20,000 nucleotides of DNA from an uncultured virus (IMG/VR IMGVR_UViG_3300025121_000046) (IMGVR_UViG_3300025121_000046); one strand, 5' to 3'; numbered from the stretch's first letter, positions 1,355-20,000 are shown. Notes: a model not told the origin generated them from the letters alone. Made by a program: numbers and translations.

Positions 1355-2839
1355 TTAATTCAATACGCTTGGTTTAATGGTAGCGCACCTGGTAGGATCG
1401 TTAACCAGACAACCGCCAACGAATGCACGGTGGAATGTGTAGCCATCTTCAGGAGAAGACATGAATCTCCGTGGTCCCTGTGCCTGGAACGGATCTCTCA
1501 AACCGGGTTGATAACCCATGAAATCTTCCATTCCTTCATTATATACAGGACGGATATTATCCTCTCCACCGGTACGTCCAACATTAAGGATCTGGTATAC
1601 ATAACTCTGTGCAACACCTTTTCCGGATGGATGCATGATCTTATTACGTTCCCTGTCATCAAATGTTGAATCAACCATGACACCAAGTTGTGTTCCATCA
1701 GGACCCCAGTATTCTACATAGTTCTCATGATATCCCCAGCCATTACCGGATTTATATTTCTCATCTCCGGAATAGAAAGGTGTATAGAGAGTAGTATAGT
1801 TCTTGATTGCCTTATGGAAGTTATATGCTCCCCACTTACCGGTACGCATGATCACTTTTCTTGTCTGACCATAACCACCTTTAGTATCATCGGTAAGATC
1901 CATGATAGCTTCGGTAAGCCATTCGATATCAACATCAAAATCATTGTAATAAAGAACATTCGATGCTTCAATCTGCTGTTCGAGGCCGGCACCCTGTTCG
2001 ATCTTGAACCCGCTGTAACCAATTTGCTTGAAAGTACCATCGTCTGCACGGTTGGTAGTTGCAAAGTTGATCAGCTTATCCTTCATATCCTGGAACTGTG
2101 TTTCAAATTCCCAGTCTGCATACTGAGTCCATGTAGTCATGATTTTCTCTTTGCCATTCGAATCCATTGCCTTCCATGAGAAAGCTACCGGCCTTGAGAT
2201 CATATTACCTGGTCTGGTGTCCTGCATCCTGATCATCGAGAAGGTGTTCTTCATCGAGAAAGGACTGGTATAGTTCGGGGTTCCACCTTTTATTGATAGT
2301 GTCTTTTCAACAATGGACCATTCTTTTGAAAACCTTTTTCCGGCTACGAGTTCATCGTAAGGAATATAGAGATCAGTGTCTCCTGTGAAAAGTTCGCATT
2401 CATAATCCCACATGGTCCCGTTTGGAACCGGTATAGCTACAATCCTGATCGGGTATACAGAATTCTTTTCACCAACTATCAGGTTAGTGTCTGAGAAATA
2501 CTGTTCCGGGAATGTAAGAGTAAACCTTGCACTGCTACGGCCAACCTGTGAGGTTGCAGAAATAGCACTGCCATTTACTGTACAAGCAATCAAAGGCACG
2601 TTCTTTTTTGAAGAACCCTGTAGCCTCCAACGAAAATCGTCATCTGTCTTTAAGGTCAGAGGACTGAATTTCTGAAGAACAAGACCGAAGTTTGTTCCCC
2701 TGTTGGCGCGATACAGCATGTTGATCATCTGGCTCGTGTCCTGTGGTTTGTTTTGATAGATCGCACCCAAGTGGTTTTTGGTTGTTAAACCAGACCAGTC
2801 TTTGGGTTCATACTCCTGAAGTGGTGATACTCGTTGCAT
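1355..2839 (-). CDS. Major capsid protein (crAss-like)
   Basis: 494 aa; N-terminal W.GLT..NHLG motif typical of crAss MCPs, GAGLEQQI and C-terminal NDPTR; position after portal and the acidic protein. Confidence 0.9.
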   Translation of the reverse strand: MQRVSPLQEYEPKDWSGLTTKNHLGAIYQNKPQDTSQMINMLYRANRGTNFGLVLQKFSPLTLKTDDDFRWRLQGSSKKNVPLIACTVNGSAISATSQVGRSSARFTLTFPEQYFSDTNLIVGEKNSVYPIRIVAIPVPNGTMWDYECELFTGDTDLYIPYDELVAGKRFSKEWSIVEKTLSIKGGTPNYTSPFSMKNTFSMIRMQDTRPGNMISRPVAFSWKAMDSNGKEKIMTTWTQYADWEFETQFQDMKDKLINFATTNRADDGTFKQIGYSGFKIEQGAGLEQQIEASNVLYYNDFDVDIEWLTEAIMDLTDDTKGGYGQTRKVIMRTGKWGAYNFHKAIKNYTTLYTPFYSGDEKYKSGNGWGYHENYVEYWGPDGTQLGVMVDSTFDDRERNKIMHPSGKGVAQSYVYQILNVGRTGGEDNIRPVYNEGMEDFMGYQPGLRDPFQAQGPRRFMSSPEDGYTFHRAFVGGCLVNDPTRCATIKPSVLN

Positions 2840-6759: not shown

Positions 6760-8886
6760 TTAATTTTTATTACGATTTTCTAACTGAAGTCTTTTATTGA
6801 TTGTTGAGAATGGATTCGATTCCTGTTTCAGTTTTTCCTGGAACATCTCCATCCTTTTAAAGAAAGGGCTTAAAGCATCTTGTGGTTTCTTATCCATGTC
6901 ATCAGGGTGAATATGCTGCATGTCCTCTTTAAGTATCATAAGCATCTGTAAAGCATCAACCCTATCAAAGTTACCCTTTGGATTCCAATATATTAACTCC
7001 TGTAATAAAGGAATTGAACGGATTCTATGGAGATTTAATATTTCACTACCAGGTTCTATAGATGTTGTCAGCCAGATAAGTATTTGTTCTCTTCCCCATT
7101 TCTGTATAGGAGCCGTTCCTGGCGTTCCTTTACCTCTGTTTAACAGAGACTTATCGAATATCTTATCAACGATTATCTTGGGAGTATCACATAGTAAATG
7201 TGCTGAGTGTCTGTTATTTAAATATGTAAATAAACCTTTCCAGTTATTTTCATAGTTACAAATAGCTCTGTAATAGATTAGTAACCTTCTTACTCCTTCA
7301 TAATATTCATTTGCAGTGGAGGGACGACCGGTATATTCTGCAACTATCCTCTCCGTAATCCGGTTCATTATGAATGTACTACCAAGAGAATCAGTAGTAC
7401 TCTTATCATGATCATAAGTATCATTACCGGCAATATATATACCCCATGGAATAACACCATCTATAATAACCGGTTGTTCGTATATTATTATTGCACCCTG
7501 CAGATTGCGTTTATCAAGTTCCGGGAACCTTCTTATAGGATGAAGATCGGCACTTGGTTTCCATTCTATCTTTTGTGTCTCTTCATTTATCTCAAGAAAA
7601 CCAACATATTCCTGTTCTTCATATTTTTCAGGATTAGAAGTAAGATGATTAAGATGATGTTTAAGATCATTGATAGGAAAGATAGTCCCACCAATACGCA
7701 TAACAGCTTCCTGGGGTGTACGTGGTTCTTCTGCAATGAATCTTATAATGGTTTCAGGGTTCTTTGTTGCTTTAATAATCTTATTCCTTGAATGATCAAC
7801 CATCTCCCTGGCAATATCTTTTAATGAATTTCCATCCTTATCCATTGCTCCTTCAAGATTCTGTTCAATAGAAACAAAATGACCACACTTACTATTCAAA
7901 GATCCTTCATCCCATATATTAGGAACCTGATGAATATTATATGCATCACCCTGGTAGAATAACTGTTCAAGTCCCATAAAATCAGAGTCTTCCGTACCCC
8001 CGGTCCCAAAACTTACGGCTAAACCATGAGTAAGACGACCCTGTTGCATGCTTTTTAACGAGATGTTCCATGCCTGAAGAAGATTAGGATTCTTACCCGA
8101 TTCCTCATAGATCAAAAGTTTACCACCCTTCCCCCTTACTTTTTGATAATCATTCTTCATTGAGATACCCATTATTTCACTCTTGAATCCTTTCTCAATC
8201 TTAAGACCTTTCTGATCTACTATATAAGATGATCTCTTATACATTGTAGTATCATGCTTCTGTCTTCTTTTTCCCCAGGGTGTATGTTGTTCGATATGAT
8301 CCATCATCTCCCATGCTTTTGAGAGAAGACCATCTTCAATAAGGAATGCTTTATCATCTGCAAATACAAAACTCTTGGATCCTGGAATAAGATAATAGTT
8401 CCTATCGCACATTGAACCAGCCTTGTAACTATATCCTCTACGTCTTGATTTAATTACAACGCCATGTTCACCATTTGCTTCTGCATCATCAAGATACCAG
8501 AAATACTGATAATCACCATCCCAGAAATCAGGAAGAGTAAAAACACGATCTGCTTTTGCCTGTTGGTAAAGTTTAGCGACTGCATCCTGATCCGTTTCAT
8601 CATCAGGAATATCAATTTCTATAGCTTTATAAATAGGACTGTAATTAAGGTAGAAATAAAAATAGCCGGGGATCTTATCCCGGCCTATATCATATCCATA
8701 TACTGATCGTCTTGCTTCTTCTTCCCAGAATTTATAATACCTGGATGACGGATGATCATTTACAGGATAGTTAGTATATCTTTCAAACTCGTTAAAATGT
8801 AAAGCGCTCTCGCGCCATACCTCAGTATTATAGTGTAATGTATTCTTAAAATAACCTGTTTCTATAATTGCCTTGTTGTCATCCAT
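6760..8886 (-). CDS. terL: Terminase large subunit
   Basis: 708 aa; Walker A-like VVIKSRRRGYSYK, Walker B LLIYEESG, motif FGTGG, RNase H-like nuclease motifs YIAGNDTYD and NFDRVDA; no intein seen. Confidence 0.93.
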   Translation of the reverse strand: MDDNKAIIETGYFKNTLHYNTEVWRESALHFNEFERYTNYPVNDHPSSRYYKFWEEEARRSVYGYDIGRDKIPGYFYFYLNYSPIYKAIEIDIPDDETDQDAVAKLYQQAKADRVFTLPDFWDGDYQYFWYLDDAEANGEHGVVIKSRRRGYSYKAGSMCDRNYYLIPGSKSFVFADDKAFLIEDGLLSKAWEMMDHIEQHTPWGKRRQKHDTTMYKRSSYIVDQKGLKIEKGFKSEIMGISMKNDYQKVRGKGGKLLIYEESGKNPNLLQAWNISLKSMQQGRLTHGLAVSFGTGGTEDSDFMGLEQLFYQGDAYNIHQVPNIWDEGSLNSKCGHFVSIEQNLEGAMDKDGNSLKDIAREMVDHSRNKIIKATKNPETIIRFIAEEPRTPQEAVMRIGGTIFPINDLKHHLNHLTSNPEKYEEQEYVGFLEINEETQKIEWKPSADLHPIRRFPELDKRNLQGAIIIYEQPVIIDGVIPWGIYIAGNDTYDHDKSTTDSLGSTFIMNRITERIVAEYTGRPSTANEYYEGVRRLLIYYRAICNYENNWKGLFTYLNNRHSAHLLCDTPKIIVDKIFDKSLLNRGKGTPGTAPIQKWGREQILIWLTTSIEPGSEILNLHRIRSIPLLQELIYWNPKGNFDRVDALQMLMILKEDMQHIHPDDMDKKPQDALSPFFKRMEMFQEKLKQESNPFSTINKRLQLENRNKN

Positions 8887-9419
8887 GTTGCTTTCTCAGT
8901 ATCTTCGAAAATACCAACTTTACCACCACCGCGTATTGACATCTGATCCTCTTCACCATAAATCTTTTTTTCCCATTTCTCAAGATCCTCAACAATAGAT
9001 CCTACATCTTTCAATGCTTTAGTGGCCAGGGCCGGGTTATATGATTTGGTATCATTGTCACTATTAAACTTTAAAGCTTCATTGAACTTGATTATTGAAT
9101 CAACAGTGTCACGTATACTGCGAAGATATCTCATTGATGATGTCTCCTGCAGTTTAATATATTTCTTTATTGCTTCTTCAATAATATCATCAGTTACATA
9201 TTCCGGATCTTCCATTACTTCCCGGGATATCATGGAACGTTTTTCAATACCATAAATATTATACTCACTTTTATAGTCTGCCACAAAATAAACATAGGCG
9301 AGTTGTTTGGTCGCTTTTTCTTTATTCTTTGAAATATCTCTATCCCATATCTTCCTGAACTCCGGGATCAACAGCATCCTGGGTTCTATCGTTACCTTGT
9401 TCTGATTGAGAATAAACAT
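8862..9419 (-). CDS. Conserved crAss-like protein preceding TerL; candidate terminase small subunit
   Basis: 185-aa helical protein overlapping the TerL start; the TerS role is inferred from position only. Confidence 0.55.
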   Translation of the reverse strand: MFILNQNKVTIEPRMLLIPEFRKIWDRDISKNKEKATKQLAYVYFVADYKSEYNIYGIEKRSMISREVMEDPEYVTDDIIEEAIKKYIKLQETSSMRYLRSIRDTVDSIIKFNEALKFNSDNDTKSYNPALATKALKDVGSIVEDLEKWEKKIYGEEDQMSIRGGGKVGIFEDTEKATWMTTRQL

Positions 9420-9663
9420 CTTCTATTGTTTTTTTACTTTTGTTTACAAAGAAATTACGCTTACCTTTTTTCACTTTGAAACATCCAAAATATTCTAATC
9501 GCACATAAGGGAAATAATTATTATAAGAATCAACTTTCTTCATCGTTTCCTTGACCATCTCAAATTCAACAGAGACAATCATCTTAACGGTATTTTTATG
9601 TATTCCGTGTTTCTTAGCTATTTCTTCGCATATGCGATCAATTCGTTTTGAGTGGATGTCCAT
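9340..9663 (-). CDS. IHF/HU-like DNA-binding protein
   Basis: ICEEIAKKHGIHKNTVKMIV helices followed by VRLEYFGCFKVK, matching the HU/IHF V.L.GFG.F strand motif; such genes occur near TerL in crAss-like phages. Confidence 0.75.
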   Translation of the reverse strand: MDIHSKRIDRICEEIAKKHGIHKNTVKMIVSVEFEMVKETMKKVDSYNNYFPYVRLEYFGCFKVKKGKRNFFVNKSKKTIEDVYSQSEQGNDRTQDAVDPGVQEDMG

Positions 9664-10241: not shown

Positions 10242-10670
10242 TTACTTTATGAGATTCGCTGCAGGAACCGTACAGAATATATCATGATCCTTTATGACCC
10301 AATAGAGCTCTTTGCAGATAACAAGAGGTTCTCCGGACTTTCCACGGTATAGAATATGGTCCCCTGTCTTGACAGATGGTTTAAGGAGTGTCCCCCCACC
10401 TATATCCCTTCCCGGGCCCACAGCCATAACAACACCCTGGTTAGGATGCTCATCCCATTTATTCTTAAATTCAATATCTGCCACCTCATAACGAAGTGCA
10501 TCTGCTGTTTCTCTTTGTTCTCTTTCGAGTGCATTCTTAGGAGCCGGAGCATCGGCAAGTATAAGCTTGCCTTTCTCTGCACGTTTTTGATTTACATCCT
10601 TGATAAGCAACCTTCTTATTATTATATTGTCACTACAAGGTTTAACCGGAAATTGTTTTGTTGTACTCAT
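10242..10670 (-). CDS. groES: GroES/Cpn10-family co-chaperonin
   Basis: VKPCSDNIII, GKLILAD, QGVVMAVGPGR, VKTGDHILY and IKDHDIFC match the Cpn10 pattern; extra segment after the mobile loop (142 aa). Confidence 0.85.
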   Translation of the reverse strand: MSTTKQFPVKPCSDNIIIRRLLIKDVNQKRAEKGKLILADAPAPKNALEREQRETADALRYEVADIEFKNKWDEHPNQGVVMAVGPGRDIGGGTLLKPSVKTGDHILYRGKSGEPLVICKELYWVIKDHDIFCTVPAANLIK

Positions 10671-11161: not shown

Positions 11162-13681
11162 TTAAGAATTACTTTTTGCTTGCCCAATTCTTTTTACAGT
11201 TACTCCATCCTGATCAGAAATATATCTGAAAGGATCTATCACTATACTTCCTGCAGGAAACATGCAGTTCCTGAACACTTCATGCTTAGTTCCTATAAAG
11301 AATATTCTTGCATCACCAAGAAATTGATATAGCTCATTTTCTTTCTGACCTGAATTTGGATCCAATTCTCTGCTCTTGCTGAACATATATACAGGATCAA
11401 CCCATGGATCATACATCTTTATTTGTTTCTCGTCTATCCCTCTGTCAATTAATAAAAGTTCTTTTAATAAAAGAGATGGACTACCTATGGTAAGATTTGT
11501 TTCCGGTTTGAATGTATAGCCAAGGATCATAATATCAAGATTACAGTCATTATTGAAATACTCATCTTCTATAAGCTGAGCAAGCCATTCTGTCTGTTTC
11601 TCCCGGGCCATCATAAGATTCTCCCACCAGTCATAAGAGATATTGAGTTTCTTTGCAATATGACTCAGGGCAATATTATCCCTGGGATGACAATTATGAA
11701 CTGTACCACAAGGTACAACATAAGTATTATGTCTATCAATCCAGAGATTATAAACTGGTCCTTTAAACCATGTTTTATGTATCTGTATTATATGACGAAA
11801 AGTTCCTTTATTGGTGACTACATAGTTTTGAATGTCTACTGGATTTTCAATTTTATCCCATCCAATAATATCACATAATTTAGAAGCAAGATATTTATTT
11901 CTAACTCTTACTTCATATGCTTTCTTATGAATACCTCTTGGTGGGATAACCCTCAACGAAGGACAAAGATCAAGACGATGTAGTATTATAAAACTCCCCC
12001 AAGCAAGATCTTTCGAAATTGTACTATATGAAATTCCATTCTTATTTCTATGTCCATCTCCAAGAATTAATCCTTTCAAAAGCAATAGCGATTGTTTTGA
12101 CCATAAAATTTGAGGAGGAATATATTTTGTAGCTGCGCCTTTACCAAAATCATTAAATAATAATTCTGCAAGTCTTTTTGATCCAAATCTTACAGATAAA
12201 CTATTCCCTTCTATTTTAATAGTAACTCTTGAAAAAAGACCTCTTAAATTTTTCCTTTTTGGAATAAGACCAAATCTCTCTGATGTTATTCTTTCAATTA
12301 ATTCTTTAATTCGTTCAGCATACATCATTTCTTTTGCATGCAAATCGAATCTTATTCTTCCCCTTCTCGAATTTAATTCAAGAGATCCCTCGCTTAAATA
12401 CCAACCTGCAAGTTCAAGATATTCAGGAGGCATTCCAGGTTCTCTTCCTTCGTTAATCTTAGGCCAATACAACATATTATCATATGTTAGATCTGATGCT
12501 TTTATCTCATTGTCATCTGACATCAATTCTGATATCTTTAATAAAGTATTCCTTCTCCCATCAGGAACCCTTGTTCTCAAATCAGTTGAAGCAATAACAG
12601 GATGATCAGCAGTCATTAATGTATGAGGAAGTCCTTTTGTTTTTAACAAAATCATATCTCCTTCATAATCCCTTACATATGTTTTTATTACTTTGCAAAA
12701 TTCACCATTTCCCGAAAGCACCATGTCTCCTTCATTTATTTCTTCGATAGGTTTCATTCCATTATATGTCATTACAAGTTGTCCTGCAGGAAAACAGCCG
12801 CCTCCATCCCCCATTCCTGCTCTCATATATGAAGCTGAAATGATTCTCCTATCAGCTAAGGATAAAGCATCAATAAGATGATCCACATCGGCTCCGGTCT
12901 TTTCACATAACTCCATAGCTGCATTAGCAAAGCAGATCTTACCTGTAATGTAAGTATTGTATAGGACCTTGATTGCCTCAGCTGTATTGATAGAGCATTC
13001 AAACACTTTAGGAAAATAATCAGCTTCCCGTGGAAATGGATTTAATACTTTTTTATAGAAATCCTTAACAATTTCTGCAGCATAAGGATCATCAACCCCC
13101 AGGAGAACGAATTCCGGATAAAGGAAATCCTGTATTGTAGTACCCATTGCAATAAAGAATGGATTATAAACAATATGTAGATTAGTTAATTCTTTTGGTA
13201 CTAAAGGAAATATCTCGCGGTACATCGTTCCGGGAAGCACCGTTGATATTATACTTACAACGAATTGCTTCCTTTCTGTTTCATCAGACATTCCATCCAA
13301 AATCATACCATTTATATATTCATTATAATGAACAATCTCCTGAATGATATCCTTCATTCCGGCAATAAGATATGAATAGTCGAAATCCACCCTTTCTTTC
13401 GGAAGAGGTGTTATTCCTTCATACCTGGGATCATGTGGTGTCTGGATAGATACAAAACAGATATCACTTTCTGTAAGCACAGAAAATAGATTCTTTACTT
13501 CTATTTTCGTTTTTTGAAGTAACTCTTCCGCTCCCTCTTCGCGATACGGAATCTTCTTTTCATCGATGTATCTTTGTATTTGTGGATTAACATCATATCC
13601 ACATACCTGATAGCCTCTTGACTCTACAGCGAGAGCACAGGGCAAGCCCAACTTACCTAAAGCCACAAAACCGATTTTCAT
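11162..13681 (-). CDS. UDP-glucose/GDP-mannose dehydrogenase family protein, intein-containing (471-aa extein)
   Basis: Rossmann IGFVALGKLG, ISTVLPGT, YNPFFIAMG, AEAIKVLYNTY, catalytic GGG|CHPRD after intein removal, and ILGYTFKPET. Confidence 0.92.
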   Translation of the reverse strand: MKIGFVALGKLGLPCALAVESRGYQVCGYDVNPQIQRYIDEKKIPYREEGAEELLQKTKIEVKNLFSVLTESDICFVSIQTPHDPRYEGITPLPKERVDFDYSYLIAGMKDIIQEIVHYNEYINGMILDGMSDETERKQFVVSIISTVLPGTMYREIFPLVPKELTNLHIVYNPFFIAMGTTIQDFLYPEFVLLGVDDPYAAEIVKDFYKKVLNPFPREADYFPKVFECSINTAEAIKVLYNTYITGKICFANAAMELCEKTGADVDHLIDALSLADRRIISASYMRAGMGDGGGCFPAGQLVMTYNGMKPIEEINEGDMVLSGNGEFCKVIKTYVRDYEGDMILLKTKGLPHTLMTADHPVIASTDLRTRVPDGRRNTLLKISELMSDDNEIKASDLTYDNMLYWPKINEGREPGMPPEYLELAGWYLSEGSLELNSRRGRIRFDLHAKEMMYAERIKELIERITSERFGLIPKRKNLRGLFSRVTIKIEGNSLSVRFGSKRLAELLFNDFGKGAATKYIPPQILWSKQSLLLLKGLILGDGHRNKNGISYSTISKDLAWGSFIILHRLDLCPSLRVIPPRGIHKKAYEVRVRNKYLASKLCDIIGWDKIENPVDIQNYVVTNKGTFRHIIQIHKTWFKGPVYNLWIDRHNTYVVPCGTVHNCHPRDNIALSHIAKKLNISYDWWENLMMAREKQTEWLAQLIEDEYFNNDCNLDIMILGYTFKPETNLTIGSPSLLLKELLLIDRGIDEKQIKMYDPWVDPVYMFSKSRELDPNSGQKENELYQFLGDARIFFIGTKHEVFRNCMFPAGSIVIDPFRYISDQDGVTVKRIGQAKSNS
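11693..12796 (-). mobile_element. Intein with LAGLIDADG homing endonuclease (368 aa, residues 296-663)
   Basis: Starts CFPAGQLV; block B TADHPV; LAGLIDADG-type motifs LAGWYLSEGS and LLKGLILGDG; ends VYNLWI...TVHN followed by Cys+1. Confidence 0.95.
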
Positions 13682-14307
13682 AATATATGAGTTTTAAGTT
13701 TAAAAAATCCATTAGATTCTTTATTCGAGTTCCAGTTCTCTTTTATCCCTTTCATACTATATCCGGACCATACTACTTCAATAAGATGACTCTGGAATGT
13801 ATTACTCCACCATGTAATATCTTCTCTTATTATATGTGTTGAATCAAGTTCGTATGCTGGTTCGTTATATGTCATGCCATTATTAGACAGTGGTACTATA
13901 ACGAAGATATTATCTGAACAAGATCGGATCTCTTTTATTATATCATTGATCTTATCATAACCAATATGCTCAAGAACATCTTTACAGATGATCCAGTTCC
14001 ATCTTTTCTTTTTCCAGAATTCTCCGCTATAAATATATTCATCTATATCAACAGGTACATTCTCAAGAGCATATTCGCTTATATCATATCCATAGGCATT
14101 AAAACCAAGTAATCGGAAAGCCTTAACAAGATATCCCATTGCGCAACCAAAATCCAAGATGGTATCTTCATCAAGTATTACAAGTTCATTTGATAGTCTG
14201 TATGCCAATGGTATTGTTAATTCAGGCATCCACCGGTACTGAGAATAAAGACTCTTTCCCGTTTCTAATCCCCTGATGTAATAATCCTCATCGTACTTTT
14301 CCATCAT
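13678..14307 (-). CDS. Class I SAM-dependent methyltransferase
   Basis: Motif I ILDFGCAMGYLV, GYDISEYA, DVLEHI. Confidence 0.9.
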   Translation of the reverse strand: MMEKYDEDYYIRGLETGKSLYSQYRWMPELTIPLAYRLSNELVILDEDTILDFGCAMGYLVKAFRLLGFNAYGYDISEYALENVPVDIDEYIYSGEFWKKKRWNWIICKDVLEHIGYDKINDIIKEIRSCSDNIFVIVPLSNNGMTYNEPAYELDSTHIIREDITWWSNTFQSHLIEVVWSGYSMKGIKENWNSNKESNGFFKLKTHIL

Positions 14308-15317
14308 ATAAAGTTTTCATATTCAATCTTTTCTTTGATCCATATAGGATTATCGTTATGCATAAACCCTTCAAGCATATTGACATTATGAGTGAATACA
14401 CATCCCTGGCAATCTCTGTTTGCATTGAAAGGCTGATCTATACTTCTACTCATATATTGCTTTATATCTTTTGCCACGCATAATGCATATTTCATATCAA
14501 AATATCCTGAATTATCGTTTAATGGTATGCTATCACAAGGAAATACTATGCCACCAAAGATCTCACTTAAATATGGACGAAAATATGACTGATGACAGAT
14601 ATTACTTACTGGTGCTTCTTTCTTCTTATGTTGAATAAAGAACCTGTTGTCATATTCTCTTCCAAGCCATTGATCGATCTCTTTATAACTATCTTCAATT
14701 TCTTCGTCTGTTTGCAGACAATCTGGAAGTACCCTGATATACTTTGCATTTATATGATCCGCTATTGTTACAAGATCATCCGGAGCGAATCTTTTATTTT
14801 CCCCTGAATAAACGAAACTCAGTCCTACAGTGGTATTCTTTCCAAATTGCTTACTATTATCCATGAAGGAGCGTATCCAGTAATCATCATAATTGACACT
14901 TACGCGCACCCAGGAGAAAGGATACATATATATATAAGGTATGGTTGTTCCATTTGTTATAAGAGCTATTTCTTTTATTCCAGATCTGTGACTTCTGAGT
15001 AAATGAATAAGTTTATCAAACTGAGGATATAATGTAGGTTCACCACCACCGGTTAATATGACAGCTTTACAGCCAAGATCAACTACATCTTCAATGTATC
15101 TTTTAATAACATCGAGTTCTAATCGTTCATGTTTTGCCCTTTTTATAACACTACAATACTTACATTTAAGATTACATCGGCCTTCAGGTGATATATGAGT
15201 TGAGACTATTGTTCGTGAATAACCTTTTTTGTAATTCTCCATCTGAGATTTATGTCTGAAAAACTTCAATCCTGTTGAAGTATATATGTCTATATTTCTC
15301 ATAATCGTATTCTCCAT
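14304..15317 (-). CDS. Radical SAM enzyme with C-terminal SPASM/twitch-like Cys cluster
   Basis: CNLKCKYC (CxxxCxxC), LTGGGEPTL, LITNGT; C-terminal CHQS...FPCD...CQGC. Confidence 0.9.
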   Translation of the reverse strand: MENTIMRNIDIYTSTGLKFFRHKSQMENYKKGYSRTIVSTHISPEGRCNLKCKYCSVIKRAKHERLELDVIKRYIEDVVDLGCKAVILTGGGEPTLYPQFDKLIHLLRSHRSGIKEIALITNGTTIPYIYMYPFSWVRVSVNYDDYWIRSFMDNSKQFGKNTTVGLSFVYSGENKRFAPDDLVTIADHINAKYIRVLPDCLQTDEEIEDSYKEIDQWLGREYDNRFFIQHKKKEAPVSNICHQSYFRPYLSEIFGGIVFPCDSIPLNDNSGYFDMKYALCVAKDIKQYMSRSIDQPFNANRDCQGCVFTHNVNMLEGFMHNDNPIWIKEKIEYENFI

Positions 15318-16789
15318 AGTCTCTTAGGATAACCAAGTCTATATCTTACAACATCTATACATACCTGTAAAAGCTTCAATTGATAGTGGGCAATATTAGA
15401 ATAAGTGGCATGTTTGATTTTTTCTTCTCTTAATATCTTATTCATATAAATCCCTTCCCTGTTTTTATATTCTATCTGTATCTCTTTAACTGTAGAGTCG
15501 ATAGCATATATCATCTTGTTCTCTTTTATAAAGATAGTTTTGTTTCCTGTATTTTCAATTTTAGTGACATAAGTTTCAAAATCAAAATACTCTTCATAGA
15601 ACTGAGAACCTTTTGTAGGTCTTATCCCCAATGATAACCCACATGTATAAAAAGGATCCTGAATAAATTCTATTGTCTTCTCTATTGTTTCTTCAAGATC
15701 CCATAATAGCGTTCCGGGTGTTATAAGCATCAATGTCATGAATGTTTCAATATTGTATTCCTTCAATTTGACAAGTGCTTCGATATTCTTTTCTGCAGTG
15801 CACTTTTTTCCTATCTCAATAAGTACATTATCGGAGAATGATTCTATACCGATATTGAGTCTTCTGAACCCTGCCTTTTTCATTATAGGAAGGATATCGT
15901 CATTGATATCATCGGCCCGGGCAAAACACATGTACGATAAATCATCAAGTCCTTTATCAATTACTCTTTGACAGAACTGCATAACAGTTTTCTTATTGAT
16001 GCAAAAATCGTCATCGGTAATATATATGGTCCGTACAAGAGGATGTGCCTTCCTTATTCTTAAGATCAGATCCGTCAATATATCGGCATCAATCCCATAA
16101 GAAACTACATTACATCCTGCAGCATCAGGTAACTGATTCGTAGATGTACAGAACTTACAATGATGAGGGCACATGTTACGCGAGTATATCCTTATTGTAT
16201 AGATCTGCTGAAGTATCTCATCGGTAATATTGTCTCCATATTTCTTAAGATAATAATCCCAATATGTTTCATAATTTATATTTTCCCAATCTATCTGAGA
16301 AGTAAATATCTCGAATTCTTCCTGGCTTAGACTTCTTGCTTTATTCTTAATGATTATTCCGGGTATTAACTCAAGATCATACTCATCACATATTAATAGC
16401 ATAGGCATCTCTCCTTCTCCAATTACAACTATATCGCATGGAGACTTATCGAGTATTGTCTGGTAGTTGTACTGAGCTTCTATGCCACCGGCAATAAGCA
16501 TTGCATTTGGAAGAATATCTCTTGTGGTCCAAACATTACTGAGATCTTTAGCAAGTGTCTCTTCAAGACAGGAGAATCCTATTATATCCCAATCTTTCTC
16601 TTTGAGTTTATCTTCAACAGACATATAAGAATCACTAAGATCATGGAGGTTAGGATCGAATGCCTCTGCATAATGACCATTGGCATTAAGTACTCCTGCT
16701 ATCCTGTTAACACCCATAGCAGGACTTACATACCTGCTTTCATTAAGTCTGTTCGAAGAATGCGGCGATATCAGAAGGATTTGTTTCAT
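15299..16789 (-). CDS. Cobalamin-binding radical SAM enzyme (class B methyltransferase-like)
   Basis: B12-domain motifs DIIGFS, LIAGG, DIVVIGEGE; SRNMCPHHCKFC; DDDF; GIESFS. Start moved from 16903 to ATG 16789 (MKQILLISP), a typical family N-terminus with less overlap with the upstream gene. Confidence 0.88.
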   Translation of the reverse strand: MKQILLISPHSSNRLNESRYVSPAMGVNRIAGVLNANGHYAEAFDPNLHDLSDSYMSVEDKLKEKDWDIIGFSCLEETLAKDLSNVWTTRDILPNAMLIAGGIEAQYNYQTILDKSPCDIVVIGEGEMPMLLICDEYDLELIPGIIIKNKARSLSQEEFEIFTSQIDWENINYETYWDYYLKKYGDNITDEILQQIYTIRIYSRNMCPHHCKFCTSTNQLPDAAGCNVVSYGIDADILTDLILRIRKAHPLVRTIYITDDDFCINKKTVMQFCQRVIDKGLDDLSYMCFARADDINDDILPIMKKAGFRRLNIGIESFSDNVLIEIGKKCTAEKNIEALVKLKEYNIETFMTLMLITPGTLLWDLEETIEKTIEFIQDPFYTCGLSLGIRPTKGSQFYEEYFDFETYVTKIENTGNKTIFIKENKMIYAIDSTVKEIQIEYKNREGIYMNKILREEKIKHATYSNIAHYQLKLLQVCIDVVRYRLGYPKRLWRIRL

Positions 16790-17612
16790 TATATATTTTG
16801 AGTAAGATTTTTTCCGGCAACTCCCTTCCATTATATGGTATTGCACGGGATATTGAGGACCTGTATTGTTTTGATATCTCAAGATCCCTGTTATTAGTTT
16901 CATAATCCCATGTCATCCACATATCAAGCCAGTTTTCATCAGGGATCGAGTCTCTTATCACGGCAGAGAACGCGAGGGCTGTAAGATGCTTCCAGTACAT
17001 CACCTTCTCTGATATAGCAAATCCGAAATTATGAACAAAGCTATTGAGGACTTTTATGTTACTTGTCTCTCCATTTCCTTTTGTTACCGGTAATTTTGAT
17101 AAGTTTGTCATGTTCCAGAATACTACTCCTGTCCTGGCTGGTCTTTCCGGAATACGAAATAAATGAGTCTTCCATAACTCTACCTGTTTTGTCTTCGCGG
17201 ATTGATATCCTTTCTCGATAAACTCATTAAAGGATGCTTCAACCTGGTCCTTTCGAAATACATGATCAACTTCCGGGATAATAAATATATCAGGTTTGCC
17301 ATGATTGGGAATGACATAGTTGTTTATAAGTGTGGTGTAAAGATTCCAGGGTACGGAATAAGGATTCATCTCTTTAGTCTGCTCGATAAGGATTATCTTC
17401 GAATTATTAAGATCCCTGATCTTTTGAACCACGTCATCAAACTTCTCAGGAAACTTAATCTTTACACCTTTATATATACACTCAGATACATTTCCCCAGG
17501 GTTTGTTTGTCCAGAATACAAATATTCTATCAACGTGATCAATGATCGATAATATAGATTCCTGAATGTAATCTTCCCCATAGAGACACCGGTAGACCGC
17601 GTATGTTATCAT
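16743..17612 (-). CDS. Putative GT-A-fold (GT2-like) glycosyltransferase
   Basis: N-terminal YGEDYIQESILSIIDHVDRIFV is typical of GT2-like proteins; EVDH lies at the DxD position; late HNFGFA. Confidence 0.6.
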   Translation of the reverse strand: MITYAVYRCLYGEDYIQESILSIIDHVDRIFVFWTNKPWGNVSECIYKGVKIKFPEKFDDVVQKIRDLNNSKIILIEQTKEMNPYSVPWNLYTTLINNYVIPNHGKPDIFIIPEVDHVFRKDQVEASFNEFIEKGYQSAKTKQVELWKTHLFRIPERPARTGVVFWNMTNLSKLPVTKGNGETSNIKVLNSFVHNFGFAISEKVMYWKHLTALAFSAVIRDSIPDENWLDMWMTWDYETNNRDLEISKQYRSSISRAIPYNGRELPEKILLKIYNETNPSDIAAFFEQT

Positions 17613-17830
17613 ATCTTAAACCTGTCAAGTTTCTCCTGCAGTTCCTTTATCCTATCCTTAAGCTGGCCAATAACCATTATAAGTACAAATATTGTCATCC
17701 CGGATACAAGTAACCAGTGACCAATTCTTGGTATACCAAGGAACCAAAGTAACCAGGCAAGAATGGTTGTTAGCCAGATAATAGTTGAAGTCATATTTTC
17801 TTTTAAATAACGTAAAATAATGTTTGTCAT
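17609..17830 (-). CDS. Small two-TM membrane protein
   Basis: Two hydrophobic stretches and a charged C-terminal tail; ATGA-coupled to both neighbours. Confidence 0.65.
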   Translation of the reverse strand: MTNIILRYLKENMTSTIIWLTTILAWLLWFLGIPRIGHWLLVSGMTIFVLIMVIGQLKDRIKELQEKLDRFKI

Positions 17831-18576
17831 TTTGCTGTGTTTTTAAGGTTTAAGTATTTCTCGATTCTCTCCGTGATCATTTCTGCTGTAGCCATCCGGT
17901 TCTTATCGGATAACTTGAATACTGTTGTATCTACATTATGAGTATCATTGTTTCTCCACTGCATGTAGGTATTGTCTCTTGGTGAACTGCCATTACTGAA
18001 ATGAAGATGTTTTATTACTACCTCAGGAATATACTTTGTTACTCCTGTTTTTTTTGCAATATCGAACACCCAGGTATCATGATAGAAGAAATGGAAGCAA
18101 TCAGGAACGAAATATCCCAGGGCCCCGACCCAATGTTTTGTAACTATAGGAAACGCACAATGCTTTTCACCATTTATACTATCATCAAAATAATAACAGA
18201 AAAATGGATGTTCTGCTGCCATCAGTCTTTCTTCAAGGATAATATCCCAATCAGGTGTGATATAAACAAGATCATCATTTCCCATTATAAATACATCAGG
18301 ACTATCGTTCCATGCTTTCATTCTGGCCAGTTCATTCCAGATCTTACCTATCGGCCGGCGTTCCTCTTCAATCATGGTCATTATAATATTGTCATGACTA
18401 TGATCCTGCATCATACGAAGTATATCATAATAGTCTTTTTTCCCTGGATCATCTGAATCTATTCCAAACAGGAAATAGATTTTATTTTGCCGGCTTACAG
18501 TCTTATTAATACTGTCAAAAAACCTGTAAAGCTCTTTTGGTCTTTGTCTTGTTGGTGTAAGGATAGCTATCTTCAT
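17827..18576 (-). CDS. GT2-family glycosyltransferase
   Basis: IAILTPTRQRP, IDSDD, WNELA, MGNDD (DxD-like), FPIV, YHDTW, KHLH. Confidence 0.82.
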   Translation of the reverse strand: MKIAILTPTRQRPKELYRFFDSINKTVSRQNKIYFLFGIDSDDPGKKDYYDILRMMQDHSHDNIIMTMIEEERRPIGKIWNELARMKAWNDSPDVFIMGNDDLVYITPDWDIILEERLMAAEHPFFCYYFDDSINGEKHCAFPIVTKHWVGALGYFVPDCFHFFYHDTWVFDIAKKTGVTKYIPEVVIKHLHFSNGSSPRDNTYMQWRNNDTHNVDTTVFKLSDKNRMATAEMITERIEKYLNLKNTAK

Positions 18577-18881
18577 ATTTTTTTCATTATTAAATTCTTA
18601 AATATTATAACTTTCTCAGCAGTATATGGAGTCCTGAAACTTGTACCAAAAGCATAGAATATAATATCTCTTGTCATAGTGTCATCATCTATATCCGGGT
18701 CAACCCAAAAAGCGCCGATCTCATTTTCATCAATATATAAATCAGTAAGTTTCTCTTTAACATCAAGATCTGCTTTTGTGACTTTGTTTTTCTCAAAGCC
18801 CATAGTCTCATTTTCATCCAGAAGTTTCTGTATCTTTTCTTTCTTTGAAGTATCGACAATATATATCTGTAGTAGTATCAT
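18573..18881 (-). CDS. Hypothetical protein
   Basis: 102-aa ORF, ATGA-coupled on both sides. Confidence 0.7.
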   Translation of the reverse strand: MILLQIYIVDTSKKEKIQKLLDENETMGFEKNKVTKADLDVKEKLTDLYIDENEIGAFWVDPDIDDDTMTRDIIFYAFGTSFRTPYTAEKVIIFKNLIMKKI

Positions 18882-19156
18882 TTAATATAATATTTTGCAT
18901 ATTCATCAATCGCTTTATTGAAATTGATCAATCCCTGTTTTCCAGTAAACATTATATAAACTCTATCTGAAACTACAGGATCACAACCAATATAATAATT
19001 ATCTCTTATTGTAGATAACTTGTTCTTCCAATTGATAGGTTGTACAAGTTGCATAGGGGCAAGTTTGACAGGTTCTTCTGGAATAAGTAGTTTTGGTGCA
19101 ATAACACCAGCTGCTACAACTGCAGGGATTAACCTGAGAAATTTTCGTCTATCCAT
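18878..19156 (-). CDS. Small protein with twin-arginine-like leader followed by MCP- and TerL-like peptide fragments
   Basis: MDRRKFLRLIPAVVAAGVIAP leader; internal similarity to this window's MCP (see findings); overlaps both neighbouring genes. Confidence 0.75.
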   Translation of the reverse strand: MDRRKFLRLIPAVVAAGVIAPKLLIPEEPVKLAPMQLVQPINWKNKLSTIRDNYYIGCDPVVSDRVYIMFTGKQGLINFNKAIDEYAKYYIK

Positions 19157-19532
19157 AAATTAATGAAATATCATATATCCCTAATTCTCTCCTTTTTTTT
19201 ATTATCTCACCTATTTCGATAGGCAGATACGCAGTTATTTCTGTAGACATCATAAAGTCATAAAAAACTTCTCGTGGTAAATATTCAGCAAAATGAAACA
19301 TTATATCAGTACATCGTTTTGACCATATAAAACATTCATTTAATTCTTTTCTGAATCGTTGTCTTTCGATATTTCTCTGTCTGAATTCTTCATGTATTTT
19401 TTCTCTGTTCGATTCAATCTCAGACATACATTCACGATATTCTTTGTCTGATTTAATATTATTATTCATATCACTCCATTTAATATAAAAATAGATTGCA
19501 ACGAATATTGGTAATAAATATAATATTTCCAT
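19149..19532 (-). CDS. Hypothetical protein with N-terminal membrane anchor
   Basis: MEILYLLPIFVAIYFYI hydrophobic start, then a charged helix. Confidence 0.65.
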   Translation of the reverse strand: MEILYLLPIFVAIYFYIKWSDMNNNIKSDKEYRECMSEIESNREKIHEEFRQRNIERQRFRKELNECFIWSKRCTDIMFHFAEYLPREVFYDFMMSTEITAYLPIEIGEIIKKRRELGIYDISLIYG

Positions 19533-19733
19533 TTAACTCATTGAATAATTAAAGATTCTTTTCTTTCCGCTTCTTCTCCTTCTGATAGTAGTTCCATTAT
19601 GAATGATACTATAGAGGTTATCATTATGATCGAAATAAGATATAGAAGTTGCAATAAGATTCATAAACTGAATCTCCTCTACACACTGATAATAGTACTG
19701 TCCTGCCTCTTCTATGTAATCAATCCTTATCAT
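19533..19733 (-). CDS. Small hypothetical protein with terminase Walker-like peptides
   Basis: 66 aa; ATGA-coupled upstream and abutting the downstream ATG; contains IDYIEEAG and GTTIRRRRSGK. Confidence 0.6.
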   Translation of the reverse strand: MIRIDYIEEAGQYYYQCVEEIQFMNLIATSISYFDHNDNLYSIIHNGTTIRRRRSGKKRIFNYSMS

Positions 19734-20000
19734 TTTACTTCTTTAAAAAAATCATCAAATCCACTACCATCTCTCTTATCCGGCTGCCTGGTTTCTCTCC
19801 GGACTTTAACTTGCTCAGATTGCTTTATATGTTCAATAGGTCCGGTATTATCGTTACTTCTTACTTCTCGTCTTTCGATTCGTCCGACTTTCTGTATTCG
19901 TTGTTTTCCCCGGACCAGATCTGAACATCCACAGATTACCGATTCATCAACATAGAGTACATTACCATTAATGAACCAACCTCGTATCTTGTTATACGAT
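19730..20000 (-). CDS. Hypothetical protein, 3' part only
   Basis: Manual translation from 19999, open for 89 codons: SYNKIRGWFINGNVLYVDESVICGCSDLVRGKQRIQ...GSGFDDFFKEVK, then TGA (19732-19730) overlapping the next ATG. Confidence 0.65.
   Translation of the reverse strand, partial: SYNKIRGWFINGNVLYVDESVICGCSDLVRGKQRIQKVGRIERREVRSNDNTGPIEHIKQSEQVKVRRETRQPDKRDGSGFDDFFKEVK

What the first reader, a model, noticed from the sequence alone, without database searches (positions are those of the whole stretch)
18878..19156. 92-aa Tat-leader protein built from pieces resembling the phage's own capsid protein and terminase
Seen in sequence: after the twin-arginine-like leader (MDRRKFL + hydrophobic) come three short modules. 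(1) KLAPMQLVQPINW (19028-19066) aligns ungapped to the MCP N-terminus RVSPLQEYEPKDW (2795-2833): 4 identical, 6 conservative. (2) YYIGCDP (18977-18997) resembles the first catalytic strand of TerL nuclease domains (here YIAGNDT, within 7411-7440). (3) RVYIMFTGKQGLINFNKAIDEY (18899-18964) aligns ungapped to MCP RKVIMRTGKWGAYNFHKAIKNY (1796-1861), 13/22 identical. Eight of those 13 identical residues use different codons, so this is not a recent DNA duplication from this genome. Established: bacterial immune sensors recognise capsid proteins (CapRel) and terminase/portal (Avs NLR-like proteins). Inference: a concatenated epitope decoy that titrates such sensors, or a dominant-negative inhibitor of assembly by competing related phages, possibly membrane-tethered or exported.
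Basis: partly seen in the sequence, partly recalled or inferred. Interest (0 to 1): 0.92.

Follow-up and report, generated by a model that had tools for sequence, protein, structure and literature searches.

The report
Export-tagged mini-protein built from capsid fragments
A small accessory gene of an uncultured crAss-like phage joins a twin-arginine-type export or membrane-anchor leader to short, old copies of the most conserved core pieces of the phage's own capsid protein, and its relatives also carry a piece of the DNA-packaging motor; what this mimicry is for is untested.

Summary
Window 18878-19156 (-) encodes a 92-aa protein. Residues 65-90 match the phage's own major capsid protein (MCP) residues 327-352: 14/26 identical, BLASTP E 1e-5, 0 of 5000 shuffles. 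The N-terminal MCP match is marginal in this protein but significant in four relatives. The proposed match to the terminase nuclease strand is chance.

The gene belongs to a small family of 11 sequences, 91-127 aa. The 28-aa leader (MDRRKFL..APKLLIPKE) is its best-kept part. The passengers are mosaics. Different members carry different conserved MCP segments: N-terminus, 217-262, 298-352 or 370-399. One member carries a 33-aa copy of the terminase ATPase strand and loop (TerL 122-154, 16/34 identical, E 7e-7). The YYIGCDP motif of this protein looks like a leftover of that piece.

The pieces are old (8 of 13 identical residues use different codons) and no closer to the phage's own MCP than to distant MCPs.

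Function is untested. My best guess (about 0.4) is a membrane-tethered or exported mimic of unfolded core segments of MCP and TerL. The main rival is reuse of the fragments for an unrelated envelope function.

This scan noted the identical protein before on other DNA.

The parts
18878..19156 (-). Gene of the 92-aa mini-protein (P0001). Its start overlaps the stop of the upstream 127-aa ORF, and its stop overlaps the start of the downstream 102-aa ORF.
   Evidence: The identical protein occurs on 38 contigs.
19073..19156 (-). Leader, residues 1-28: MDRRKFL, a 13-residue uncharged core (LIPAVVAAGVIAP), then KLLIPEE. It is twin-arginine-type and has no AxA cleavage site (Pro follows Ala20).
   Evidence: Alignment A1: M1, R3, R4, F6, A20 and P21 are invariant in 11/11. 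TIGR01409 scores 12.3 bits, below the 16.7 cutoff. AF2 predicts a helix over residues 3-24.
19028..19066 (-). Residues 31-43, KLAPMQLVQPINW: a diverged copy of the MCP N-terminal motif (MCP consensus SPLQEYEPxDW).
   Evidence: marginal in P0001; significant in 4 relatives; MCP consensus.
18998..19027 (-). Residues 44-53, KNKLSTIRDN: a possible copy of MCP 196-205 (KNTFSMIRMQ). Suggestive only.
   Evidence: By eye. Pfam Crass_capsid aligns P0011 residues 36-94 to profile positions 196-256, which includes this motif. The short-segment test did not find it significant.
18977..18997 (-). Residues 54-60, YYIGCDP: a stub of the TerL 122-154-like piece that sister proteins keep whole. Not significant on its own.
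   Evidence: A1 aligns it with P0010 YFLGCDP. P0010 against TerL is 16/34 identical, E 7e-7. P0001 against TerL is at chance level.
18887..18964 (-). Residues 65-90, RVYIMFTGKQGLINFNKAIDEYAKYY: a strand-turn-helix copy of MCP 327-352.
   Evidence: AF2 predicts E66-70 and H73-91, at low confidence.
1355..2839 (-). Major capsid protein gene (P0002, 494 aa, Crassvirales type).
   Evidence: phrog_11589 E 4e-93. PDB 7QOF gp32 E 8e-85.
1784..1861 (-). MCP residues 327-352: the source-like segment, a strand (E328-333) and helix (H335-348) that I place in the A-domain from general HK97-fold topology (inference).
   Evidence: conservation.
2795..2833 (-). MCP residues 3-15: the conserved N-terminal motif.
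6760..8886 (-). Large terminase gene (P0003, 708 aa), intein-free in this phage.
   Evidence: phrog_6681 E 1e-121.
8425..8523 (-). TerL residues 122-154 (WDGDYQYFWYLDDAEANGEHGVVIKSRRRGYSY): the segment copied in sister mini-proteins. It is a putative strand plus deviant P-loop.
   Evidence: The P-loop assignment is inferred from the pattern and from intein insertion at this spot in relatives.

Best explanation
Shown:
- This is a real accessory gene of an uncultured crAss-like phage and a member of a small family of 91-127-aa proteins.
- Each member has a strongly conserved 28-aa leader: a twin-arginine n-region, a short hydrophobic core, an invariant Ala-Pro, then KLLIPKE.
- Each member also has a 60-100-aa passenger assembled from old, diverged copies of the most conserved core segments of the MCP. 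In some members the passenger includes the strand and loop of the terminase ATPase.
- In this protein the passenger is the MCP N-terminal motif, a stub of the TerL piece, and the MCP 327-352 strand-turn-helix.

Inferred mechanism:
- The leader inserts into the inner membrane by the Tat route and is probably not cleaved, because Pro sits at +1. The passenger is therefore tethered at the membrane or exported.
- The passenger presents core strand and helix segments of MCP and TerL in an exposed, non-native context.
- It thereby competes for some factor that binds those segments in unfolded or nascent MCP and TerL. That factor could be a host sensor of conserved phage proteins, a chaperone, or an assembly partner.

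The architecture is well supported (about 0.85). The mimicry function is a guess (about 0.4 for mimicry of any kind; the confidence given here is for that).
For: Gene and family:
- The identical protein is on 38 contigs.
- There are 9 representatives at E<=0.001 among 1.84 billion.
- Synteny with locus L004 is kept: small ORFs, the mini-protein, then a glycosyltransferase.

Leader:
- RR, F6, A20 and P21 are invariant in 11/11.
- Similar MDRRKF or MNRRNF leaders sit on unrelated passengers in three other phage loci: L005, L010 and L138. It therefore behaves as a generic targeting module.
- It is the only such leader among the six-frame ORFs of G002.

Likeness to the MCP:
- Searches give the direct matches described in the observation check.
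- An MCP profile of 59 sequences beats all 200 own shuffles for 7 of 11 passengers, at different MCP regions: 298/319-352 in P0001, P0004, P0006 and P0008 (P0007 maps there too but was reached by 1 of 200 shuffles); 217-262 plus 3-21 in P0009; 231-254 in P0011; 370-399 in the L002 ORF.
- Pfam Crass_capsid is a weak hit in 4 of 11 members and phrog_11589 in 3 of 11.
- hhalign of the passenger profile against the MCP profile gives three sub-alignments with P between 5e-4 and 3e-3.
- The reverse search agrees. The family profile hits the MCP gene itself in 2 of 5 related records.

Specificity:
- All 4 non-self BLASTP hits at E<=0.01 of the 11 passengers against 139 ORFs fall on the MCP (3) or TerL (1). 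Those two proteins make up 3.6% of the residues searched. 7 of 550 shuffles reached E<=0.01.

TerL piece:
- P0010 residues 42-74 match TerL 122-154 at 16/34 identical, E 7e-7. The lineage TerL profile gives 11.1 bits, reached by 0 of 200 own shuffles.
- P0011 matches TerL 137-154 at E 0.004, directly abutting a match to MCP 236-250 at E 0.013.

Constraint:
- Group-A members keep the MCP's near-invariant R327, T333, G334, G337 and F341. Spearman correlation between MCP conservation and retention is 0.51, p 0.008.

Precedent:
- Host sensors can bind unfolded core strands (Upx, AlphaFold 3 models) or a buried core helix (EcAvs2, cryo-EM) of TerL (PMC13601566, passages read).
- MCP sensors such as Avs7, Dsr1 and CapRel exist (PMC13581612 passages; PMC9712102 listing and abstract start only).
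Against: - No experiment and no expression data exist.
- A Tat-type leader would put the passenger in the periplasm or at the membrane, away from cytoplasmic sensors, MCP and TerL.
- The Tat profiles are below their cutoffs: TIGR01409 12.3 against 16.7; PF10518 hits 1 of 11. The host and its Tat system are unknown.
- The pieces do not track the phage's own MCP. Eight distant MCPs score higher by BLOSUM62 than the own MCP, and Spearman is 0.09. That argues against tight co-evolution.
- Leader-bearing proteins with passengers unlike MCP or TerL exist in L005, L010 and L138.
- The passenger fold is poorly predicted: AF2 pLDDT 57.6 and Atlas 0.44.
- The TerL link rests on one strong member (P0010) and weaker ones; 4 of 11 passengers scored nothing against the MCP profile above their shuffles.
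- The pooled TerL null has a heavy tail. One of 2200 shuffles scored 12.4 bits, above the 11.1 of P0010.
Confidence: 0.4

Rival explanations
1. Reused fragments, unrelated function. The passenger was assembled from pieces of MCP and TerL genes by illegitimate recombination. It now serves as a small exported or membrane protein, for example in superinfection exclusion, lysis timing or envelope modification. The retained residues only keep local strand-turn-helix structure; nothing is being mimicked.
For: - The leader is shared with proteins that have unrelated passengers.
- The gene lies in a variable block of small accessory ORFs next to glycosyltransferases.
- The whole block is 38-51% identical between two phages whose MCPs are 90% identical.
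- The pieces show no specificity for the phage's own MCP.
- Size and topology resemble small signal-anchored periplasmic phage proteins such as T4 RI (recalled, not tested).
Against: - Repeated, independent use of at least four MCP segments plus TerL across members is unexpected for random raw material. In P0001 almost the whole passenger is accounted for by MCP- or TerL-like pieces.
- All strong proteome-wide hits fall on MCP or TerL.
- The MCP's near-invariant residues are preferentially kept.
Confidence: 0.33
2. Assembly factor or regulator of the phage's own capsid. A membrane-tethered mini-MCP uses the N-terminal motif and core segments to hold or nucleate MCP subunits, or to delay their assembly.
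For: - The MCP N-terminal motif is kept in 7 of 11 members directly behind the leader.
- The phage encodes a GroES-like protein (window 10242-10670), which suggests assisted MCP folding.
- The copied segments are the most conserved in the MCP.
Against: - The predicted topology puts the passenger outside the cytoplasm.
- The gene is missing from close relatives. The family profile found no member in 4 of 5 related records, 40-88% complete. Only 4 loci were found in IMG/VR, so it is not a core assembly gene.
- The TerL piece has no place in capsid assembly.
Confidence: 0.1
3. Dominant-negative weapon against co-infecting related phages. The core-segment peptides would poison folding or assembly of a competitor's MCP and TerL.
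For: The pieces match the family consensus, and some distant MCPs, at least as well as the phage's own MCP.
Against: - It would poison the phage's own MCP equally, since the own MCP has the most identities (14/26).
- The export leader argues against a cytoplasmic action.
- There are no data.
Confidence: 0.07
4. Decaying relic or chance. The ORF would be a non-functional remnant of recombination, or the similarities would be coincidental.
For: - The family is tiny: 9 representatives in 1.84 billion.
- The fold prediction is poor.
- No RNA evidence exists.
Against: - 0 of 5000 shuffles reach the observed score.
- The result is replicated in L004 (E 1.4e-6).
- The leader is 75% conserved where the passenger is 36%.
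- The frame is intact in 11 diverged members.
- The gene overlaps its neighbours at start and stop, as in a coupled operon.
Confidence: 0.05

Closest known systems
Crassvirales major capsid protein (Pfam PF23898; PhiCrAss001 gp32, PDB 7QOF)
   Same: Residues 65-90 and 31-43 of the mini-protein, and other segments in its relatives, are homologous at fragment level to conserved MCP segments. These include the N-terminus, a strand plus long helix at 231-259, a strand plus helix at 328-348, and a hairpin at 375-389.
   Different: Only 13-55-residue pieces are present, not the HK97 fold. Pfam scores 11.3 bits against a cutoff of 27. The pieces sit behind an export-type leader and next to a TerL-derived piece.
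Twin-arginine (Tat) signal peptides, including uncleaved signal anchors and small 'hitchhiker' subunits that carry a signal-less partner (general knowledge, recalled)
   Same: Invariant RR-x-F-L, a short hydrophobic core, a basic residue after it, and a small passenger. The Atlas feature search lists Tat-signal clusters and a periplasmic [Fe] hydrogenase small subunit at scores of 0.80-0.83, which is a lead only.
   Different: The profile scores are below their cutoffs. There is no AxA site. There is no cofactor domain. The host and its Tat system are unknown.
Bacterial sensors of conserved phage proteins: Upx and Avs1-3 for TerL, Avs7, Dsr1 and CapRel for MCP, and Lit with the T4 Gol peptide (the last recalled)
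   Same: The mini-protein family copies exactly the two proteins these sensors detect. Upx is modelled to bind unfolded ATPase core strands including beta1, and EcAvs2 binds a buried nuclease helix (PMC13601566, passages read).
   Different: No sensor is known for crAss-like phages or their hosts. No phage decoy made of its own MCP or TerL fragments turned up in my searches. Known sensors are cytoplasmic.
T4 vs.8, an ATPase-like paralogue of the terminase ATPase domain (PMC13601566, passage read)
   Same: It is a phage accessory protein derived from TerL.
   Different: vs.8 keeps a whole ATPase domain with Walker motifs, and it activates EcAvs2. The piece here is 33 residues long.
T4 RI antiholin and similar small signal-anchored periplasmic phage proteins (recalled)
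   Same: About 95 aa, with an N-terminal Gly/Ala-rich weakly anchoring segment and a passenger of about 65 aa.
   Different: No sequence similarity was tested or seen, and there are no lysis genes nearby.

Membership tests
Tat signal peptide | Consecutive arginines in the n-region within an (S/T)-R-R-x-F-L-K-like motif | tested here: met
   D-R-R-K-F-L-R in P0001. R3, R4 and F6 are invariant in 11/11 and L7 is present in at least 90%. The S/T position is D or N.
Tat signal peptide | Score above the curated cutoff of the Tat signal profiles | tested here: not met
   TIGR01409 scores 12.3 bits against a cutoff of 16.7. PF10518 matches 1 of 11 members at E 0.0075.
Tat signal peptide | Short hydrophobic h-region followed by a c-region with an AxA cleavage site | tested here: not met
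   A 13-residue core is present, but it is followed by an invariant Ala-Pro. Pro at +1 is known to block signal peptidase I (recalled), so the leader is probably an uncleaved anchor.
Tat signal peptide | Tat-dependent export in a host that has TatA and TatC | not testable with these tools
   The host is unknown. No prophage copy was found in 185,579 species genomes.
Crassvirus major capsid protein (PF23898) | Full HK97-like fold of about 490 aa, scoring above the gathering threshold | tested here: not met
   11.3 bits against 27, covering 26 residues only. This is fragment-level homology.
Large terminase | ATPase and nuclease domains | tested here: not met
   P0001 against TerL is at chance level. 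Only a 33-aa segment is present in P0010.
RiPP precursor peptide (conserved leader and variable core next to radical SAM enzymes) | Conserved linkage to a modifying enzyme, and a leader recognised by it | tested here: inconclusive
   Radical SAM genes lie 2-4 kb downstream in the window. In L002 the family sits between SSB-like and primase-like genes with no such enzyme on the 4.5-kb contig. The leader is hydrophobic and Tat-like, unlike known RiPP leaders (recalled).
Phage anti-defence decoy or mimic protein | Binds and neutralises a host defence sensor | not testable with these tools
   No sensor candidate is known. It would need co-expression or binding assays.

The most novel reading that the evidence does not exclude
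Capture and remove. The passenger displays exposed core strands and helices of TerL and MCP, and so is bound in the cytoplasm by host pattern-recognition proteins that detect unfolded or nascent TerL and MCP by strand augmentation. The Tat route is the only one that moves pre-formed complexes. The twin-arginine leader would therefore drag the bound sensor to the membrane or out of the cytoplasm as a 'hitchhiker', disarming it before the real MCP and TerL are made. This would be a modular anti-immune decoy whose cassettes are swapped between phages.
Probability: 0.1. Interest if true: 0.95.

Novelty: new variant of a known kind. Interest (0 to 1): 0.72.

Why it matters
If the mimicry is functional, this would be the first phage protein known to me that copies short core pieces of the phage's own capsid and packaging proteins. 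Those are the two proteins that bacterial innate sensors most often detect. It would also couple those pieces to an export or anchor signal. That would point to unknown MCP- and TerL-sensing defences in the hosts of crAss-like phages and give a simple, testable decoy design.

If the mimicry is not functional, the family is still a clear natural case of a new mini-domain built by joining sub-domain fragments of two unrelated proteins. That bears on how new small genes arise in phages.

As a gene architecture I found no precedent in three literature searches. I rate it a new variant, not categorically new, because its function is untested.

Tried and rejected
- Complex prediction of the MCP (alignment A2) with passenger residues 29-92 (alignment A1) gave no verdict: score 0.00, and the controls were not run.
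- The look-up of sequencing runs listed no RNA holder. All 15 rows are DNA runs that may be the source samples. No reads were laid.
It was rewritten and rerun.
- blastn of window 17600-20000 against the phage collection found no match.
- A search for longer proteins sharing words with P0001 found none at E<=0.1, which is weak evidence.
- The genome-contig scan for the family found none in 185,579 species genomes, so there is no host clue.
- PDB and Pfam gave nothing for TerL, so the P-loop assignment could not be checked against a solved structure.
- AF2 of the mini-protein gave pLDDT 57.6, so no fold search was run on it.

Idea rejected: the passenger is a simple collinear deletion derivative of the MCP. 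In P0005 and P0008 the KNRISTIR motif precedes the N-terminal motif, in the L002 ORF the 370-399 piece precedes a spine-helix-like piece, and a TerL piece sits in the middle.

Idea not supported: the pieces are extein flanks carried by mobile inteins.
- The TerL piece does end at ...RRKGY|T. In relatives an intein of about 353 aa sits at the same spot, after TerL residue 152.
- But 80 of 80 MCP loci are uninterrupted, and that loop is simply the most conserved motif.

Idea rejected: every protein with this leader mimics its own phage's MCP.
- The L005 provirus protein has no likeness to its own 370 ORFs (best E 1.7).
- The L138 protein has no likeness to the MCP or TerL profiles.

Idea rejected: the passenger evolves faster than its neighbours. 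It is 36% identical between the window and L004, but the neighbouring genes are 38-51%.

Full report
**What is there**

Window 18878-19156 on the minus strand is a 92-aa ORF (P0001). It sits in a tight one-directional array of small ORFs. Its ATG overlaps the stop of a 127-aa ORF, and its stop overlaps the start of a 102-aa ORF, which is followed by a glycosyltransferase.

The window is part of a crAss-like phage. It encodes the MCP (1355-2839, phrog_11589 E 4e-93; PDB 7QOF gp32 E 8e-85), the portal (4295-6748) and TerL (6760-8886). The record holding the window is a 51-kb fragment. A 94-kb record, G002, is 97% complete and carries the identical mini-protein, MCP and TerL.

**Checking the observation**

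The 22-residue match is exactly as described: 13/22 identical, with eight identical residues using different codons, and 37/66 bases identical.
- BLASTP extends it to 14/26 (P0001 65-90 against MCP 327-352), E 1e-5.
- No shuffle reaches the ungapped score of 63: 0 of 5000 when the small protein is shuffled and 0 of 2000 when the MCP is shuffled. The null mean is 28 (sd 4) and the Gumbel P is about 5e-6.
- The match survives a search without prior choice of target. Against all 139 ORFs of G002 it has E 0.001.
- An MCP profile run over 294 six-frame ORFs of G002 finds only the MCP and this protein, at E 1.3e-4.

The N-terminal match (KLAPMQLVQPINW against MCP 3-15) is marginal in this protein. 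It is reached by 214 of 3000 shuffles against the whole MCP and by 12 of 3000 against the first 40 residues.

The proposed match of YYIGCDP to the TerL nuclease strand is chance: 1129 of 2000 shuffles do as well against TerL.

**The family**

An exhaustive profile-free search of 1.84 billion representatives found 9 proteins at E<=0.001. The word-indexed search and the locus scans added P0004 and a 91-aa ORF. Together that makes 11 sequences of 91-127 aa, aligned as A1.

The leader is the best conserved part: M1, R3, R4, F6, A20 and P21 are invariant. Between the window and the syntenic locus L004 the leader is 75% identical and the passenger 36%. The neighbouring genes are 38-51% identical, although the two MCPs are 90% identical. 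So the whole accessory block is divergent, not this gene alone.

**The passengers are mosaics**

I built a lineage MCP profile of 59 sequences and searched the 11 leaderless passengers, each with 200 shuffles of its own. Seven of the 11 beat all their shuffles, and they map to different MCP regions:
- P0001, P0004, P0006 and P0008 map to 298/319-352. P0006 aligns over 55 residues at 20.1 bits. P0007 maps there too (3.3 bits) but was reached by 1 of 200 shuffles.
- P0009 maps to 217-262 and also to 3-21.
- P0011 maps to 231-254.
- The L002 ORF maps to 370-399, at 17.1 bits.

P0010, P0005, P0012 and P0007 did not exceed their shuffles.

Short-segment profiles show the MCP N-terminal motif in P0005, P0006, P0009 and P0012. 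Public libraries agree weakly and independently. Pfam Crass_capsid hits 4 of 11 members (best E 0.005). phrog_11589 hits 3 of 11, at profile positions 199-257, 319-347 and 376-407 in three different members. Profile-profile comparison gives three separate sub-alignments at 199-260, 289-352 and 1-34, with P between 5e-4 and 3e-3.

The copied segments are among the most conserved in the MCP. In an AF2 model of the MCP (pLDDT 75.6) they are the disordered N-terminus, a strand plus long helix (E231-236, H237-259), a strand plus helix (E328-333, H335-348) and a hairpin. From the HK97 topology I infer that the long helix is the spine helix.

Group-A members keep the MCP's near-invariant R327, T333, G334, G337 and F341 (Spearman 0.51, p 0.008).

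**The TerL piece**

P0010 residues 42-74 match this window's TerL residues 122-154 at 16/34 identical, E 7e-7. A TerL profile built from 16 related loci gives 11.1 bits, reached by 0 of 200 own shuffles. One of the 2200 pooled shuffles did reach 12.4 bits.

P0011 matches TerL 137-154 (E 0.004), and the next residues match MCP 236-250 (E 0.013).

This TerL segment...GVVIKSRRRGYSY, is strongly conserved. By its pattern I take it to be the strand and deviant phosphate-binding loop of the ATPase. That is recalled analogy to the lambda gpA type and was not checked against a structure.

In P0001 the alignment places YYIGCDP at the start of this piece, and the rest has been lost.

In a proteome-wide BLASTP, all four non-self hits at E<=0.01 fall on the MCP (three) or TerL (one). 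Together these two proteins make up 3.6% of the residues searched. 7 of 550 shuffled queries reached that E-value.

**What the pieces are not**

- They are not recent. The codons differ, and the segment is no closer to the phage's own MCP than to MCPs that are only about 50% identical overall. The own MCP has the most identities, but eight others score higher, and Spearman is 0.09.
- They are not a simple deletion derivative of the MCP. The order of pieces differs between members, and a TerL piece sits between MCP pieces.
- They are not explained by mobile inteins. Relatives do carry an intein exactly where the TerL-like piece ends, but 80 of 80 MCP loci are uninterrupted.

**The leader**

The leader has an invariant RR-x-F-L, a 13-residue uncharged core and a basic residue after it. 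That fits a twin-arginine signal. It has no AxA site, and its invariant Ala-Pro should block signal peptidase I (recalled). I therefore read it as an uncleaved signal anchor.

The curated profiles are below their cutoffs. Similar leaders sit on unrelated passengers in three places: a GC-rich provirus (L005), a metagenome contig (L010) and a related crAss-like record (L138). At least two of these passengers show no MCP or TerL likeness. So the leader is a generic targeting module, and the mosaic passenger is special to one subfamily.

**How it may work**

Nothing here tests function. The repeated, selective use of MCP and TerL core segments and the retention of their invariant residues make me favour mimicry of exposed core segments (about 0.4). 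Recent evidence adds to this: host sensors bind unfolded TerL core strands or a buried helix (PMC13601566, passages read).

The main obstacle is the export-type leader.

The chief rival (about 0.33) is that the fragments were only raw material for a small envelope-directed accessory protein. The gene is sporadic. Only 4 loci turned up in IMG/VR, and 4 of 5 related records (40-88% complete) had no family member. So it is not a core assembly gene.

**Earlier notes**

This scan had already noted the identical protein on other DNA and read it as an export-tagged mini-protein made of capsid pieces. My tests agree. They add the varying MCP segments, the relocated TerL piece, the lack of specificity for the phage's own MCP, and the genericity of the leader.

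**Literature**

Three searches found no description of such a protein. Supplements were not consulted.

Noticed in passing
L020, L021, L022, L033 (TerL loci); L035; L043; L004:12060-15293: Relatives' TerL genes carry in-frame inserts of about 353 aa with LAGLIDADG-like motifs that end in HN followed by S or T, so they are probably inteins. One sits after TerL residue 152, inside the conserved K(S/T)R(G/R)(R/K)G(Y/F)|S loop. One sits after about residue 298 (GTGG|C...HN|T), and the 1078-aa TerL of L004 has it too. A third lies near residue 600. The window's own TerL has none.
   Followed up: partly
L004:5657-5824 (+): A leaderless 55-aa ORF directly upstream of the L004 mini-protein resembles the C-terminal MCP-like module of P0001 (12/25 identical, E 8e-6). 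It may be a tandem paralogue without the leader.
   Followed up: partly
L138:1393-1827 (-); L005:10001-10375; L010:932-1336: Other small phage proteins (124-144 aa) start with MDRRKF or MNRRNF plus a hydrophobic core but have unrelated passengers. Two were tested and show no MCP or TerL likeness.
   Followed up: partly
window 11162-18576 (-): The window holds a block of sugar- or modification-type genes. There is an 839-aa protein with a UDP-glucose dehydrogenase-like N-terminus, a methyltransferase, and two radical SAM proteins (one with a B12-binding domain). A 249-aa glycosyltransferase completes the block, and its counterpart block in L004 has two. The function of the block is unknown.
   Followed up: no
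window 10242-10670 (-) and 9340-9663 (-): A GroES-like co-chaperonin (phrog_3188, E 4e-9) and an HU-like DNA-binding protein (PF00216, E 4e-6) lie upstream of the packaging genes.
   Followed up: no
L006 and L007 (one 158,175-base metagenome contig): The same locus occurs twice on one contig, about 97.7 kb apart. The contig is therefore probably a concatemer or a run-round assembly of a genome of roughly that length.
   Followed up: no
window 19149-19532 (-) versus L004: The slot between the conserved 66/70-aa gene and the mini-protein holds unrelated ORFs in the two phages. The window has a 127-aa ORF with an N-terminal hydrophobic segment, and L004 has a 55-aa ORF. This is a variable insertion spot.
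   Followed up: no
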